Below are positions 1 to 5,485 of a DNA stretch of 64,000 bases, piece after piece. The stretch's first letter is position 1, and each line of letters begins with the position of its first letter. Source of the stretch: the human T2T-CHM13v2.0 reference genome, Homo sapiens; assembly GCF_009914755.1 (NCBI RefSeq), contig NC_060947.1; one strand, given 5' to 3'. Below the pieces are notes generated by a model. It was not told the DNA's origin and searched no databases. It was given only the letters and a program-made list of their open reading frames with translations. The translations under genes and the position numbers were made by a program.

Positions 1-1064
1 GCTCCACCAACAGCCGGAGGTCTCTCAGGGCCCGCAGGCCACGTGGTGACCAGCACGGCGGCCCTGGGTAAAATCTTCCTCTTCAGTAACCTCCCCAAGA
101 AGACCGGCACCGGCTTCTGCTTCTCCCAGTCCCCACAGATGTCCTAGATCAGTGCCCCAGGTGGGGCTCCCAGCTCATCAAAGCCGTCGACCACGAACAG
201 GATTTTCTGTGCTTGGGCTAGGATGTTTGGAATGTCATCCTGCAATTCAGGCCAGTTCCTGAAGACCAGCTCTGCAAAACTGCACGGGCCCAGGCAGATG
301 AGCTCCTTGCAGGTGAGGTAGAAAGCCTATCTAAATTTCTGGCTGAGGTTGTCCTCTGCCCAGTCCAGCATTAATTTCTTGGCCAGCGTGGTTTTCCCAA
401 GGCCCGCAGGACCATGCAGCACCACCGTGTGTGGGCAGGGCCCGGGAAGCACCCTGGGGTTGCTGAACGGGATCAGCATCTTGTATCTCTGAGCCATAAT
501 ATGGACCACTTTGAGGTCTCCAGGCCAGGTTTTCCACATTTGCCAGAACTTCGTCTTCAATATACTCCTGTACCTATCCTCTTTACCTGGCTTTTCTCCT
601 TTCAAGACTTCTTTAGCTTCTCTTAGGCTGGTGACATCTTCCTCCGTTTCTATAAACTCTAGTGCTTCTGCTTCGAAACGCCCCAGCATTTGTTTCAGGT
701 CTATAGGTTTTGGCTCTTCTTTCCCTGTTTTCCCTAATGATACAGGCTTGATTTCAAAGTGTCTTCTCTGAGTTCATCCTTTACTTTCTCAGACAGATCC
801 GCTCGGTGCATCTTTTCAAAGACCTGGATGGTCTCTATCTTCATCCAGTAGCTGTGGCAATGGCTGGTGATGATTTCTGCCAGTTGCTTCCCATCAGCCT
901 TGTCTACCTATGTCTGGGGGATCTTTTGCAGCTCATTTCCCAGGGAGACGGTCCTGATCAGAGACTTGAACTTGCACAAGTCATCCTGGCTGAGCTGTCC
1001 CAGAAGAGCCTGCAGGTTGAAGTCCAGCTGTGCAGAAGACACCATCTCGTCTGACGTGGGAACT
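1..1064 (-). pseudogene. NLRP2B: NLRP2-derived retrocopy (NLRP2B/NLRP2P locus): PYD, linker and start of NACHT; continues off the left edge
   Basis: Minus-strand translation follows NLRP2 (PYD ...VDKADGKQL...; [16 protein letters not shown]; Walker [10 protein letters not shown]; Walker B region ILFVVDGFDEL) with no introns between PYD and NACHT. Lesions: TAG at 908-910, frameshifting deletion near 750, TAG at 327-329, TAG at 144-146, +1 frameshift near 35. Confidence 0.93.
908..1045 (-). CDS. NLRP2B: 45-aa truncated pyrin-only protein POP4, MVSSAQLDFNLQALLGQLSQDDLCKFKSLIRTVSLGNELQKIPQT
   Basis: ATG at 1045 in strong Kozak context (gagATGG), 45 sense codons, TAG at 910-908. Matches the POP4/NLRP2B peptide as I recall it. 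Too short to appear in the supplied ORF track. Confidence 0.88.
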   Translation of the reverse strand: MVSSAQLDFNLQALLGQLSQDDLCKFKSLIRTVSLGNELQKIPQT

Positions 1065-1107
1065 CTGATGAGAATTAAGGGAGGAATGGAAAGGGATGGT
1101 GAGTCAG
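1063..1107 (-). promoter_or_regulatory. Intron-type 3' splice site immediately upstream of the POP4 ATG exon
   Basis: Minus strand reads tgactcac (branch-point-like), catccctttccattcctcccttaattctcat (pyrimidine tract), then CAG|AG|ttcccacgtcagacgagATG. TGAGTCA (AP-1 consensus) overlaps at 1100-1106. Confidence 0.6.
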
Positions 1108-1188
1108 CAATCCTGTCTCAACCGAGTCCCCTCTGTGCCATGAACAAGGATACTCTCACCATCTACCTTGCTTCTTCAAGAACAAATT

Positions 1189-1384
1189 CCCAGCCTGGGC
1201 AACATAGTGAGATCTCTATCTCCATAAAAAATAAGTTAGCAGAGGGTGGTGGTGTGCACCCACAGTCCCAGCCACCCAAGAGGCTGAGACGAGAGGATGG
1301 CTTGAGCCTGGGAGGTTGACGCTTCAGTGAGTCTTGATTGTGCCACTGCACTCCCATCTGGGCAACAGAGAGAGACCTCATCTC
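1189..1384 (+). mobile_element. Old Alu (AluJ-like), 5'-truncated
   Basis: ccagcctgggcaacatagtgaga...gaggatggcttgagcctgggagg...gggcaacagagagagacctcatctc; AluJ-type diagnostics, highly diverged. Confidence 0.8.
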
Positions 1385-1693
1385 ACTTTATCCTTATTTA
1401 CTTATTTATTTTTGAGACAGTTTCACTCCGCTGTCCAGGCTGGAGTGCAGTGGTGTGATCTCTGCTCACTGTAACATCCTCCTCCCAGGTCCAAGCAATT
1501 CTCCTGCCTCAGCCTCCCGAGCAGCTGGGACCACGGGCACCTGCCATCATGCCTGGCTAATTTTTGTATTTTTAGTAGAGATGGGGTTTCACCACGCTGG
1601 CCAGGCTGGTCTCAAACTCCTGACTTGAAGTGATCTGCCCGCCTTGGCATCCCAAAGTGCTGGGATTACAGGCTTGTGCCACCGTGCCTGGCC
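1385..1693 (-). mobile_element. AluS-family element (Sx/Sz-like)
   Basis: Degenerate T-tail, both Alu arms, ends gccaccgtgcctggcc. Confidence 0.9.
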
Positions 1694-3813: not shown

Positions 3814-3930
3814 TGTAAACCTAAAAGGAAGAGACTGAGGCCCAAAATATTATTTTGAGTTTACTTAGGCCAAAGTAAGAAGAGCAGCCCAGAAGACTCA
3901 CACTCAAATAACCTTAGGTATGAGTTACTT
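3814..3930 (-). mobile_element. 3' end (R/U5) of a 5' LTR, MER34-like; the remainder is displaced by an L1
   Basis: Minus strand ...agtaaactcaaaataatattttgggcctcagtctcttccttttaggtttaCA; polyA-signal-like AGTAAA and terminal CA adjacent to the PBS. Confidence 0.6.
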
Positions 3931-4945
3931 CTATGTCTTCTTTGGAAAAATGTTTTTTAGATCCTATGTTCATTTTTTCACTGGGTTATTTAACTTTATT
4001 GTTATTGAATTGTATGTGTTCCTTATATATTCTGGATATTCACTTCTTATCATATATATGCTTTAAAAATATATTATCCCAATATGGAGATTGTCTTTTT
4101 TATCTGTTGATTGTTTCTTTTTATGTGCAGAAGCTTTTTAGTTTAATGTAGTCCAACTTGTTAATTTTGCTTTTGTCTTCTTTGCTGTTGGGGTTGCACT
4201 AACAAATATCATTGACCAATGTCCCAGGCTTCCCCTTGGATTTTGTCAGTTTTAGGTTTTATATTTAAGTCTTTAGTTCATTAAAGGTATTTTATACATG
4301 GTATAAGATAATAATCTAATTCAATTATGTTGTTTGTGGAGATCTGGTTTTCCCAAGACAATTTGTTGAAGAGAGTTTGTTTTACCCATTGTGTGTTCTT
4401 GGAACCCTTGTCAGAGTTAGTGGTCTCTATATGTGTCAGTTTATTTCTGGTTTTTCTATTCTGTTTCATTTGTCTATTTCTCTGTTTTTGTGGTGGCACT
4501 TCACTTTCAGATTGCAGAAGCTTTGTTACATATTTTGAGACCAGGAAGTGTACTGCCTTCAAGAATTCTTCTTTTTCTCAAGAATTATTTGGCTACTCAC
4601 GGTATTTTGAAGTTTTATACTAACTTTAGAATTTTGTCTTCTATTTCTGTGAAATATTCTATTGGAATTTTTATAGGGATTGCATTCAGTTTGTATGTAA
4701 CTTTTGTAGCATGGACATTTTAAAAATAATAATCGTCTAATTCATGAACACTGGATATCTTTTGATTTATTTGCACCTCCATCAATTTCTTTCAGCAATA
4801 TTTATAGTTTTCAGTATAAAGGTCTTGTACCTCCTTGGTGTAATTTGCTTCTAAGTATTTTTATTATTTTTGTAAATGGGATTAAAAAATTTGTTTTGGA
4901 TTGTTCACTCTTACTGAATACAAAAACAAATAATTTGTGTATGCA
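3931..4945 (-). mobile_element. Old L1M (L1MA/MB-like) ORF2 fragment
   Basis: Diverged L1 ORF2 antisense motifs (gtgcagaagctttttagtttaatgtagtcc; gggattgcattcagtttgtatg). Confidence 0.75.
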
Positions 4946-5131
4946 TTCCTCAGTTTCTATTACCCAATAAATAATGTACAACATTCAACCAAAACATTAC
5001 AAGGCATGCAAAAATGTAACAACAATTAAAGTCTGAAGGAAAATGCAAACTTCAGAAACAGACTCTAAAAACCTTACAAATAAATATGATCGATATGGTA
5101 AAAGAAGATAAACAAAGGAGTCATAAAAATG
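4946..5131 (+). mobile_element. Old L1M ORF1/inter-ORF fragment; host of the L1PA at 5132, resumes at 11193
   Basis: ...ggagtcataaaaat joins ttcaattaaaccag... after the L1PA, as in L1MC/MD inter-ORF sequence. Confidence 0.55.
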
Positions 5132-5485
5132 TATTGGGTACATCTCACTGGGGAGTGCCAGACAGTAGGTGCAGGACAGTGGGTACAGCACACCGTGTGT
5201 GAGCCAAAGCAGGGTGAGGCATCCCCTCACACGGGAAGCACAAGGGGTCAGGGAATTCCCTTTCCTAGTCAAAGAAAGCAGTGACAGACAGCACCTGGAA
5301 AATCGGGTCACTCCCACCCTAATACTGCCCTTTTTCAACAGGCTTAAAAAACGGCACACTAGGAGATCATATCCTGTACCTGGCTCAGAGGGTCTTACGC
5401 CCATGGACTCTTGCTCATTGCTAGCATAGCAGTCCGAGATCAAACTACAAGGTGGCAGCGACGCTGGGGGAGGGGTTCCCACCAT
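4997..5485 (-). CDS. L1 antisense ORF0, open and running into the flank (162 aa, MVGTPPPASLPPCSLISDC...)
   Basis: ATG at 5485 (gcaATGG) is codon 71 of ORF 4997..5695 and is homologous to L1 ORF0. Donor-like CAG|GT sites occur after nt 106 and 191. Expression is not demonstrated. Confidence 0.55.
   Translation of the reverse strand: MVGTPPPASLPPCSLISDCYASNEQESMGVRPSEPGTGYDLLVCRFLSLLKKGSIRVGVTRFSRCCLSLLSLTRKGNSLTPCASRVRGCLTLLWLTHGVLYPLSCTYCLALPSEMYPIHFYDSFVYLLLPYRSYLFVRFLESVSEVCIFLQTLIVVTFLHAL

What the first reader, a model, noticed from the sequence alone, without database searches (positions are those of the whole stretch)
908..5485. Candidate L1 antisense-promoter/ORF0-POP4 in-frame fusion gene
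Seen: element A carries an open ORF0 (ATG 5485, strong Kozak) on the same strand as NLRP2B, 4.4 kb upstream. It has CAG|GT sites after ORF0 nt 106 (exon end 5380, phase 1) and nt 191 (exon end 5295, phase 2). The acceptor before the POP4 ATG is CAG|AG|, leaving 19 or 17 nt to the ATG. Splicing 5295->1064 (2+19) is in frame without a stop, giving ORF0(63 aa)-RVPTSDE-POP4(45 aa) = 115 aa. Splicing 5380->1062 (1+17) is also in frame. Known: the primate L1 antisense promoter transcribes ORF0 and splices from two donors (recalled as nt 106 and 191) into nearby exons to make fusion proteins; POP4 is reported to inhibit NF-kB. Inference: a retrocopy of an immune gene could be expressed from, and N-terminally extended by, an L1, linking L1 derepression to an inflammation damper. 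With two donors and two AGs, an in-frame pair is not unlikely by chance.
Basis: partly seen in the sequence, partly recalled or inferred. Interest (0 to 1): 0.8.

Follow-up and report, generated by a model that had tools for sequence, protein, structure and literature searches.

The report
Hypothetical L1 ORF0–NLRP2B (POP4) fusion
An old, dead L1 element 4.4 kb upstream of the small immune gene NLRP2B could on paper splice its antisense ORF0 in frame onto the gene through a splice acceptor inherited from the parent gene NLRP2, but nothing shows that such a transcript is made.

Summary
Every sequence fact in the finding is correct. On the minus strand there is an ORF0 ATG at 5485, CAG|GT donors ending at 5380 and 5295, and an AGAG acceptor giving exon starts 1064 and 1062. 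The pairs 5295->1064 (115 aa) and 5380->1062 (86 aa) are in frame.

New here: NLRP2B is not a clean retrocopy. It carries at least 0.5 kb of NLRP2 intron 1, so the acceptor is the parent's exon-2 3' splice site. A C->G change at 1065 created the upstream CAG and spoiled the old AG.

Against significance:
- Frame compatibility is expected by chance (64% in simulation).
- 12 of 29 sister L1 copies keep the same ORF0 and donors.
- The donors are weak.
- Eight equal or better acceptors and 12 poly(A) hexamers lie in between.
- Only 2.9% of L1 antisense transcripts are spliced at the 5' end (PMC9396940).
- RefSeq and GENCODE show a single 3,194-nt exon.
- NLRP2B is absent from the two L1-chimera supplement sets I could search.

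Verdict: a real arrangement and a plausible but unsupported isoform. RNA evidence could not be tested here.

The parts
5136..11195 (+). Element A: a near full-length L1PA element, 5'-truncated by about 95 nt, with broken ORF1 and ORF2
   Evidence: Homology to 29 sister copies ends at window 5128-5137, while the 8 of them whose flanks were printed continue about 95 nt further to the L1 5' end; identity is 90.0-92.2% over about 965 nt. The ORF1 ATG is at 6069 with only 41 aa open. The longest stop-to-stop frame on the + strand is 328 aa. The A-rich 3' end lies near 11195.
5295..5485 (-). ORF0 segment from the ATG (5485) to the second donor (exon end 5295, nt 191, phase 2). The first donor ends at 5380 (nt 106, phase 1).
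   Evidence: GT is kept at each of the two positions in 27 of 29 sister copies; CAG|GT in 14 of 29 (first donor) and 23 of 29 (second donor). No Pfam family.
5567..5569 (-). Upstream ATG in frame with ORF0. It opens a 190-aa ORF (5569..4997) that runs out of the L1 into the flank.
   Evidence: Context GGCATGC.
1063..1110 (-). 3' splice site region: CTGAC branch-point-like motif, pyrimidine tract, then CAG|AG. The exon starts at 1064 (new AG) or 1062 (the parent's AG, now GAG).
   Evidence: PWM scores are 5.07 (1064) and -1.37 (1062), against 3.79 for the parental site.
1063..1573 (-). Retained NLRP2 intron-1 sequence upstream of the PYD exon. It may reach about 2075 through an Alu.
   Evidence: Window 1573..766 is colinear with chr19 58063935-58064737 at 84% over 810 nt. 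The global alignment also pairs the Alu at 2072-1835 with the chr19 Alu, with a 260-nt gap on the chr19 side.
908..1045 (-). NLRP2B/POP4 coding sequence: 45 aa, the first third of a Pyrin domain
   Evidence: Pfam PYRIN profile positions 2-34 of 76, 22.6 bits against a cut-off of 22.9. Matches the hub annotation.
767..907 (-). The rest of the Pyrin-domain exon, in frame behind the TAG stop
   Evidence: Pfam PYRIN positions 37-76 of 76, 29 bits. The exon ends where the parent has AG|gtgagt.
1..584 (-). Start of the NACHT-exon homology of the retrocopy. It continues outside the window to about -2397, followed by a poly(A) tail.
   Evidence: Window 584..-983 matches chr19 58076260-58077824 at 86%. 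Seven further exon blocks abut without introns. The A-run lies at about -2394..-2436.
3347..3820 (-). Competing cryptic exon candidates on the same strand: acceptors at 3820 and 3500, donors at 3681 (CAA|GTGAGT) and 3347 (ATG|GTAAGT)
   Evidence: PWM ranking. These acceptors score 6.99 and 7.02, and the donors 5.2 and 6.5, which are the best two of 202.

Best explanation
This is an ordinary juxtaposition, not a demonstrated gene.

Shown:
- A dead L1PA element, 5'-truncated and heavily CpG-decayed, lies head-to-head 4.1 kb upstream of NLRP2B.
- Like about 40% of its sister copies, it still has the antisense ORF0 start and the two ORF0 donors.
- NLRP2B was retrocopied from an NLRP2 RNA that still held intron 1. 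It therefore carries a fossil of the parent's exon-2 acceptor 17 nt before the ATG.
- A C->G change at 1065 made a new CAG 2 nt upstream.

Inferred:
- If a minus-strand transcript started in the L1 upstream of 5485 and used the second donor, the first AG (exon start 1064) would be the favoured acceptor. The product would be a 115-aa ORF0-POP4 protein.
- Most likely this happens not at all or only as trace splicing noise. The L1 antisense promoter, if active, would mainly give short unspliced transcripts, or would splice or terminate earlier.
- NLRP2B mRNA would then start elsewhere.
For: Coordinates and frames.

Origin of the acceptor: colinearity of window 1573..766 with the NLRP2 locus (84%), base-level alignments, and spliced downstream exons plus a poly(A) tail.

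Chance and commonness: 64% chance of an in-frame, stop-free pair; 12 of 29 sister L1s keep an equivalent ORF0 and donors; this copy has the fewest CpGs (9, against 11-21 in the 29 others) in the 478-nt stretch.

Splice-site strength, using a PWM built from recalled frequencies:
- The donors score 0.4 and 0.0 bits, ranking 29 and 40 of 202 GTs in the region, and lie below 6 of 8 real NLRP2 donors.
- The 1064 acceptor ranks 9 of 317 AGs.
- All 8 better-scoring AGs and 12 AATAAA/ATTAAA hexamers lie between donor and acceptor.

Base rates from PMC9396940 (passages and section 5):
- 17.25% of L1PA1-7 elements with a 5' UTR give antisense chimeras in brain or glioma.
- Only 44 of 1509 (2.9%) are spliced at the 5' end.
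- 161 of 8744 (1.9%) have spliced EST chimeras.
- 12 of 36 tested chimeras start in the +200 region. In this element that region lies downstream of both donors (inferred).

Also, 57 of about 3200 genic ORF0 loci gave exon fusions (PMC4908685 passage).

Annotation: RefSeq has a single exon that begins at the ATG (hub table). The GENCODE gene span chrX:57677067-57680260 is 3,194 bp, the same single exon.

Absences: none of NLRP2P, NLRP2B or NLRP2 (nor ZXDB, ZXDA, SPIN3) occurs in the 10 supplementary files of PMC4908685, and none of the three NLRP2 names in the 5 of PMC6639357. No paper holds NLRP2B with L1PA or NLRP2P with LINE-1. None of the 8 papers that hold NLRP2B has L1 as its subject, by title.
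Against: - The acceptor is a once-functional splice site. It scores above the parental one (5.07 against 3.79) and within the range of NLRP2's other acceptors (-2.3 to 10.1), so read-through RNA would probably recognise it.
- A retrocopy has no promoter of its own, and the true 5' end of NLRP2B mRNA is not known to me. The RefSeq model starts at the ATG.
- About one in six L1PA1-7 antisense promoters is active even in brain.
- The lists I could search cover ESTs and neural progenitors only. They do not cover testis, placenta, embryonic stem cells or tumours.
- The PWM rests on recalled frequencies and is crude.
Confidence: 0.8

Rival explanations
1. A real but minor L1-driven isoform. In L1-hypomethylated cells (germ line, placenta, embryonic stem cells, tumours, cells treated with DNMT inhibitors) the antisense promoter of this L1PA fires. 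Part of the RNA splices from the second ORF0 donor to the 1064 acceptor and gives an ORF0-POP4 mRNA. The mRNA would escape nonsense-mediated decay because its stop lies in the last exon. It is transcriptional noise with little or no function.
For: All cis elements are present and in frame. The acceptor is inherited and scores well. L1PA1-7 antisense promoters are often active, and spliced ORF0-exon fusions are a known class. No annotated exon lies between the L1 and NLRP2B (hub table).
Against: The donors are weak, and eight better acceptors and 12 poly(A) hexamers intervene, including about 1 kb of an old sense-oriented L1 fragment. Only 2.9% of antisense chimeras are spliced. This copy is the most CpG-decayed of the 30 compared. 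It is absent from annotation and from the two supplement sets searched.
Confidence: 0.12
2. The antisense promoter is active but never reaches POP4 in frame. Its transcripts either start in the +200 region downstream of both donors, stay unspliced and end at one of the A-rich poly(A) signals, or splice into cryptic exons (3820-3681, 3500-3347, or the antisense Alu at 1357) that break the frame.
For: 12 of 36 tested chimeras start in the +200 region and 97% are unspliced. The top-scoring acceptors and donors of the interval lie at 3820/3681 and 3500/3347. There are five poly(A) hexamers between 4865 and 4000.
Against: No RNA evidence for any of these either. The PWM is crude and rests on recalled frequencies.
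Confidence: 0.06
3. A functional, selected fusion. The L1 supplies the promoter and an N-terminal ORF0 extension to POP4, coupling L1 derepression to damping of NF-kB.
For: Only the feasibility: an in-frame pair, a genuine acceptor, and the fact that the C->G change at 1065 moves the favoured AG into frame with the better-conserved second donor.
Against: There is no sign of constraint. ORF0 and donor retention matches that of unselected sister copies (12 of 29), and the frame match is expected by chance. There is no expression, translation or conservation evidence. POP4 was described as active as the 45-aa protein alone (secondary accounts).
Confidence: 0.02

Closest known systems
L1 ORF0-exon fusion transcripts driven by the L1 antisense promoter (Denli et al. 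2015, known to me only through PMC4908685, PMC4859970 and PMC9396940 passages)
   Same: A primate L1PA 5' UTR in antisense orientation upstream of a same-strand exon. The ORF0 ATG has a good initiation context, GT is present at both ORF0 donor positions, and a downstream acceptor gives an in-frame junction.
   Different: No RNA or peptide evidence exists for this locus. The target is not a normal gene exon but the relic acceptor of a retrocopy. The intron would be 4.2 kb, crowded with competing sites.
L1 chimeric transcripts (LCTs) in general (Speek 2001 recalled; Criscione 2016 PMC4908685; Pinson 2022 PMC9396940)
   Same: The same promoter region and the same two donors.
   Different: Most LCTs are short and unspliced. 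This locus is not in the supplements of the EST-based list of 988.
Processed retrocopies and 'resurrected' pseudogenes such as PYDC2/POP2, the other NLRP2-like Pyrin-only retrogene
   Same: The downstream introns are removed, there is a poly(A) tail, and only the Pyrin part is coding. PYDC2 on chr3 matches window 1066..784 at 84%.
   Different: NLRP2B keeps at least 0.5 kb of parental intron 1 with its 3' splice site. PYDC2's homology stops at the exon-2 boundary.

Membership tests
L1 ORF0-exon fusion gene | L1PA1-8 5' UTR containing the antisense-promoter region (about +400 to +600), antisense to and upstream of the target exon | tested here: met
   The 5' UTR is present from about L1 position 96 to the ORF1 ATG at 6069, and is 90-92% identical to 29 full-length-5'UTR copies. 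It lies on the strand opposite to NLRP2B.
L1 ORF0-exon fusion gene | ORF0 start codon and an open frame up to a donor | tested here: met
   ATG at 5485 in the context GCAATGG; the frame is open through both donors.
L1 ORF0-exon fusion gene | GT donors at the two ORF0 splice-donor positions | tested here: met
   CAG|GTACAG and CAG|GTGCTG, at positions where 27 of 29 sister copies also have GT. That these are nt 106 and 191 in the published element is recalled; no paper I could open confirmed it. Both score weakly.
L1 ORF0-exon fusion gene | A same-strand acceptor of a coding exon, in frame | tested here: met
   The acceptor at 1064/1062 is inherited from NLRP2 exon 2. The in-frame pairs are 5295->1064 and 5380->1062. 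The frame match has no statistical weight.
L1 ORF0-exon fusion gene | A junction-spanning transcript that starts in the L1 | not testable with these tools
   No RNA-seq, CAGE or EST data are on hand. Indirect negatives: a single-exon RefSeq and GENCODE model (hub table), and absence from the supplements of PMC4908685 and PMC6639357.
L1 ORF0-exon fusion gene | A translated fusion protein | not testable with these tools
   No Ribo-seq or proteomics data are on hand.
Processed retrocopy of NLRP2 | Parental introns absent | tested here: inconclusive
   The introns downstream of the PYD exon are absent: the exon blocks abut. Intron 1 is retained for at least 510 nt. Window 765-616 found no match in the chr19 stretch searched.
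Processed retrocopy of NLRP2 | Poly(A) tail and target-site duplication | tested here: inconclusive
   An A-run follows an AATAAA at about -2394..-2436. No convincing duplication was found by eye between that flank and 2076-2160.
Pyrin-domain (PYD-only) protein | Match to the Pfam PYRIN profile | tested here: inconclusive
   The 45-aa protein covers profile positions 2-34 of 76 at 22.6 bits, just under the 22.9 cut-off. The in-frame continuation after the stop covers positions 37-76 at 29 bits.

The most novel reading that the evidence does not exclude
The 'resurrected' pseudogene NLRP2B gets a promoter and first exon from the neighbouring L1PA antisense promoter. RNA starting upstream of the ORF0 ATG splices from the second ORF0 donor into the relic NLRP2 exon-2 acceptor. 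A single C->G change moved that acceptor by 2 nt, into frame. Cells that lose L1 methylation would then make an ORF0-POP4 protein, tying L1 derepression to control of NF-kB.
Probability: 0.05. Interest if true: 0.6.

Novelty: new member of a known kind. Interest (0 to 1): 0.25.

Why it matters
If the junction were found, it would add an innate-immune regulator to the short list of ORF0-exon fusions. It would also show how a retrocopy made from an intron-retaining RNA can pick up a transposon promoter through its inherited splice acceptor.

As it stands, the locus illustrates a limit of sequence-only prediction. Frame-compatible donor-acceptor pairs around L1 5' UTRs are expected by chance and need RNA evidence.

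The one solid new detail is that NLRP2B keeps parental intron 1 with a 3' splice site shifted by one substitution. This bears on where NLRP2B transcripts may start and on how their 5' ends should be mapped.

Tried and rejected
Literature and earlier findings
- Denli 2015 (by DOI and by PubMed id), Porter 2014 (by DOI and by PMC id) and Speek 2001 (by PMC id) are not held. The published donor positions, the list of 57 fusions and any 5' mapping of NLRP2P could therefore not be checked.
The supplementary tables of PMC9396940 (its LCT list) were therefore not searched and may bear on the claim.
- Earlier findings of this scan were not open.

Sequence tests that gave nothing
- PYDC2's upstream flank found no NLRP2 exon 1 in chr19 58.04-58.11 Mb. 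The only hit was a 14-nt chance match. PYDC2 therefore supports the exon-2 boundary only by where its homology stops.
- The NLRP7-like paralogue has its own pyrimidine tract and CAG before its ATG, but it does not align base for base there. It gives no outgroup for the C/G at 1065.
- The target-site duplication of the retrocopy was not resolved.
- The Alu-rich stretch makes the 5' limit of the retained intron ambiguous, between 1573 and about 2075.

Rejected ideas
- The frame match as evidence.
- ORF0 intactness as a sign of selection (12 of 29 sister copies).
- The long 163-codon reading frame from 5485 as special: 11 of 29 sister copies also read on past 114 codons.

Not attempted
- No fold or complex prediction of the fusion protein. 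It would need a joined sequence and would not bear on whether the fusion exists.
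Full report
**1. The observation**

Reading the minus strand and recomputing by script confirms every coordinate in the finding.
- An ATG lies at 5485-5483 in the context GCAATGG.
- The frame from it is open through two CAG|GT sites. These are CAG|GTACAG with exon end 5380 (nt 106, phase 1) and CAG|GTGCTG with exon end 5295 (nt 191, phase 2).
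- Upstream of the annotated NLRP2B/POP4 ATG (1045) the sequence reads ...ccctttccattcctcccttaattctcatCAG|AG|TTCCC... This gives possible exon starts at 1064 and 1062, which are 19 and 17 nt before the ATG.
- Of the four donor-acceptor pairs, 5295->1064 (115 codons: 63 ORF0 + 7 linker + 45 POP4) and 5380->1062 (86 codons) are in frame without a stop. The other two are out of frame.

**2. What element A is**

The ORF0 lies in the antisense strand of an L1 on the + strand.
- Twenty-nine related copies were fetched from the same genome. The search scored 40 of 5,485 first-look candidates, and the best non-self match was 91%.
- Over about 965 nt of 5' UTR the element is 90.0-92.2% identical to these 29 copies. 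Its homology stops at window 5128-5137, while the 8 copies whose flanks were printed run on about 95 nt to the L1 5' end. It is therefore 5'-truncated by about 95 nt.
- The ORF1 ATG is at 6069 with only 41 codons open. ORF2 is in pieces, the longest frame being 328 aa. The A-rich 3' end is near 11195.
- It is thus a dead, near full-length L1PA element.
- Its 5' UTR holds a stretch that I recall as the roughly 129-bp segment present in L1PA3-6 and lost in L1PA2/L1HS. Together with the divergence this suggests L1PA4-6. That assignment is recall plus inference and was not tested.
- In the 478-nt ORF0 stretch this copy has 9 CpGs, the fewest of the 30 compared (the others have 11-21).

**3. Is the ORF0 special?**

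No.
- Among the 29 sister copies, 26 keep the ATG and 27 keep GT at each donor position. CAG|GT is kept in 14 at the first donor and 23 at the second.
- Twelve of the 29 keep the ATG, an open frame of the same length and both GTs.
- The frame running on far beyond 71 codons is also a trait of this group: 11 of 29 read on past 114 codons.
- An upstream ATG at 5569 is in frame in this copy and opens a 190-aa ORF.

**4. What the acceptor is (new here)**

The window's own genome is held, so the parent gene could be fetched.
- The POP4 region matches chr19 at 86% (NLRP2), chr3 at 84% (PYDC2/POP2) and a second chr19 site at 69% (NLRP7-like). The gene names come from my own knowledge of the loci; the tool gives none.
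- Against 70 kb of chr19, window 1573..766 is colinear with 58063935-58064737 (84% over 810 nt). Window 584..-983 then matches a 1.6-kb exon 11.5 kb further on. Seven more blocks of 167-394 nt abut each other in NLRP2B but lie 0.3-3.7 kb apart on chr19.
- The parent has gt after each block and ag before it, within 1-3 nt. An A-run follows the last block.
- NLRP2B is therefore a retrocopy in which the downstream introns are spliced out. At least 510 nt of the intron in front of the Pyrin exon were retained, including Alus.
- A global alignment suggests the retained part may reach about 2075, with 260 nt missing on the chr19 side. I could not settle this, nor find a clear target-site duplication.

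At the base level the parent reads ...gtcatcaCAG|CTCCCACG..., 17 nt before its ATG.
- The parent's AG aligns with the second AG of NLRP2B (exon start 1062).
- NLRP2B has G where the parent has C (window 1065). That change creates a new CAG 2 nt upstream (exon start 1064) and turns the old site into GAG.
- PYDC2's homology begins at 1066, just at this boundary. The NLRP7-like paralogue also has a pyrimidine tract and CAG shortly before its ATG.
- That the NLRP2 start codon lies in exon 2 is recalled. An attempt to find exon 1 through PYDC2's flank failed.
- With a crude weight matrix built from recalled frequencies, the 1064 site scores 5.07, the 1062 site -1.37 and the parental site 3.79. Seven of the other eight NLRP2 acceptors score 4.5-10.1 and one scores -2.3.
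- By the usual rules (first AG after the branch point; C preferred and G disfavoured at -3; established knowledge, not tested here), 1064 should be the used site.

**5. Does the arrangement mean anything?**

The frame match carries no weight. The donors have phases 1 and 2 and the two AGs are 2 nt apart, so an in-frame pair always exists. In 20,000 trials with random leaders of 5-60 nt, 64% gave an in-frame, stop-free pair and 41% gave one using the upstream AG.

The path from donor to acceptor is crowded.
- On the same matrix the two donors score 0.4 and 0.0 bits. They rank 29 and 40 of 202 GTs in 5600-900 and fall below 6 of 8 real NLRP2 donors.
- The 1064 acceptor ranks 9 of 317 AGs, and all eight higher-scoring AGs lie between donor and target.
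- Two of those AGs pair with the best two donors of the region, making plausible cryptic exons at 3820-3681 and 3500-3347.
- Twelve AATAAA/ATTAAA hexamers lie in the would-be intron. Five of them sit in a roughly 1-kb A-rich stretch at about 4000-4870, which I read as an old L1 fragment in sense orientation.

**6. What is in print**

- ORF0 is about 70 aa, has two splice donors and can fuse to downstream exons (PMC4859970 passages; PMC9396940 passages; PMC7746726 passages).
- L1HS and L1PA2-8 carry ORF0. About 3,200 genic loci encode it, and 57 gave exon fusions (PMC4908685 passage).
- In brain and glioma, 17.25% of the 8,744 L1PA1-7 elements with a 5' UTR gave antisense chimeras. Only 44 of 1,509 (2.9%) were spliced at the 5' end, and spliced EST chimeras are known for 161 of 8,744 (1.9%).
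- Of 36 chimeras tested by PCR walking, 19 started in the +450 region, 12 probably in the +200 region and 5 upstream of the L1 antisense-promoter regions (PMC9396940 passages and section 5).
- In this element the ORF0 ATG sits at about L1 position 445 and the donors at about 340 and 255 (inferred). Starts in the +200 region, and part of those in the +300-500 region, would therefore miss the ATG or the donors.
- POP4 is described as a 45-aa product of the NLRP2P pseudogene that inhibits NF-kB but not inflammasomes (PMC7555848, PMC5192809, PMC5512670 and PMC7938106 passages). The primary paper (Porter 2014) was not held, and I recall only its abstract.

**7. Searches for this locus**

- None of NLRP2P, NLRP2B or NLRP2 occurs in the 10 supplementary files of the EST-based catalogue of 988 L1 antisense transcripts, or in the 5 supplementary files of the DNMT1-knockout neural-progenitor study.
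- No paper in the library holds NLRP2B together with L1PA, or NLRP2P together with LINE-1. None of the eight papers that hold NLRP2B has L1 as its subject, judged by title.
- One of those eight lists the GENCODE gene as chrX:57677067-57680260, which is 3,194 bp. That is exactly the length of the single RefSeq exon in the hub table (-2148..1045), so neither annotation has an upstream exon.
- Not seen: Denli 2015, Porter 2014 and Speek 2001 (not held), the supplements of PMC10619931 (closed), and those of PMC9396940 (not asked for after that).

**8. Protein content**

- POP4 matches Pfam PYRIN positions 2-34 of 76 at 22.6 bits, against a cut-off of 22.9.
- The frame behind its TAG stop continues with positions 37-76 at 29 bits.
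- The 63-codon ORF0 part matches no Pfam family.

**9. Verdict**

The sequence arrangement is real, and the fusion is mechanically possible.

Nothing distinguishes it from what chance and the abundance of L1PA 5' UTRs provide. Base rates for spliced antisense chimeras are low, competing sites are many, and annotation and the lists I could search are silent.

My estimates:
- About 0.8 that no meaningful ORF0-POP4 transcript exists.
- About 0.12 for a rare, non-functional isoform in hypomethylated cells.
- About 0.06 for antisense transcripts that never reach POP4 in frame.
- About 0.02 for a functional fusion.

The decisive test is a junction and 5'-end search in RNA data, which these tools do not offer.

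Noticed in passing
window 1063-1573 (perhaps to 2075), minus strand; chr19 58063693-58064440 in L007: NLRP2B retains at least 0.5 kb of NLRP2 intron 1, Alus included, in front of the Pyrin exon. It was therefore copied from an intron-1-retaining or intron-1-initiated RNA. Relative to the X copy, chr19 lacks about 260 nt (window 1832-1574) between two A-rich stretches.
   Followed up: partly
window 5567-5569 and 4997-5569, minus strand: An ATG in frame with ORF0, 84 nt upstream of it, opens a 190-aa ORF that runs through the L1 5' end into flanking DNA.
   Followed up: partly
L014-L042 (29 L1 copies) and window 5143-5620: In this L1 group the ORF0 frame often lacks a stop near codon 71. Eleven of 29 copies read on for more than 114 codons, and only one of 29 stops at codon 71 (the published 70-aa form as I recall it).
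   Followed up: partly
window 3347-3820, minus strand: Two exon-like units lie in otherwise unannotated DNA between the L1 and NLRP2B. They have the best-scoring acceptors (3820, 3500) and donors (3681, 3347) of the whole interval.
   Followed up: no
window 616-765, minus strand: This part of the NLRP2B transcript, between the Pyrin exon and the NACHT exon, found no match in chr19 58.04-58.11 Mb at the settings used. Only 615-585 matched (58075750-58075780). It may be short diverged exons or inserted sequence.
   Followed up: no
window about 4000-4900, minus strand: An A-rich stretch that reads like an old L1 ORF2/3' fragment in sense orientation on the minus strand, with five AATAAA/ATTAAA hexamers. 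The identification is by eye only.
   Followed up: no
window 2920-2945, minus strand: A run of about 25 A, possibly the tail of another retroposed sequence.
   Followed up: no
window 430-171 and L004 (chr19 58034335-58034594): A 260-nt stretch of the NACHT-exon part of NLRP2B also matches, at 86.5% and in reverse orientation, a site next to the NLRP7-like Pyrin exon. This is probably the paralogue's own NACHT-related sequence or a shared repeat.
   Followed up: no
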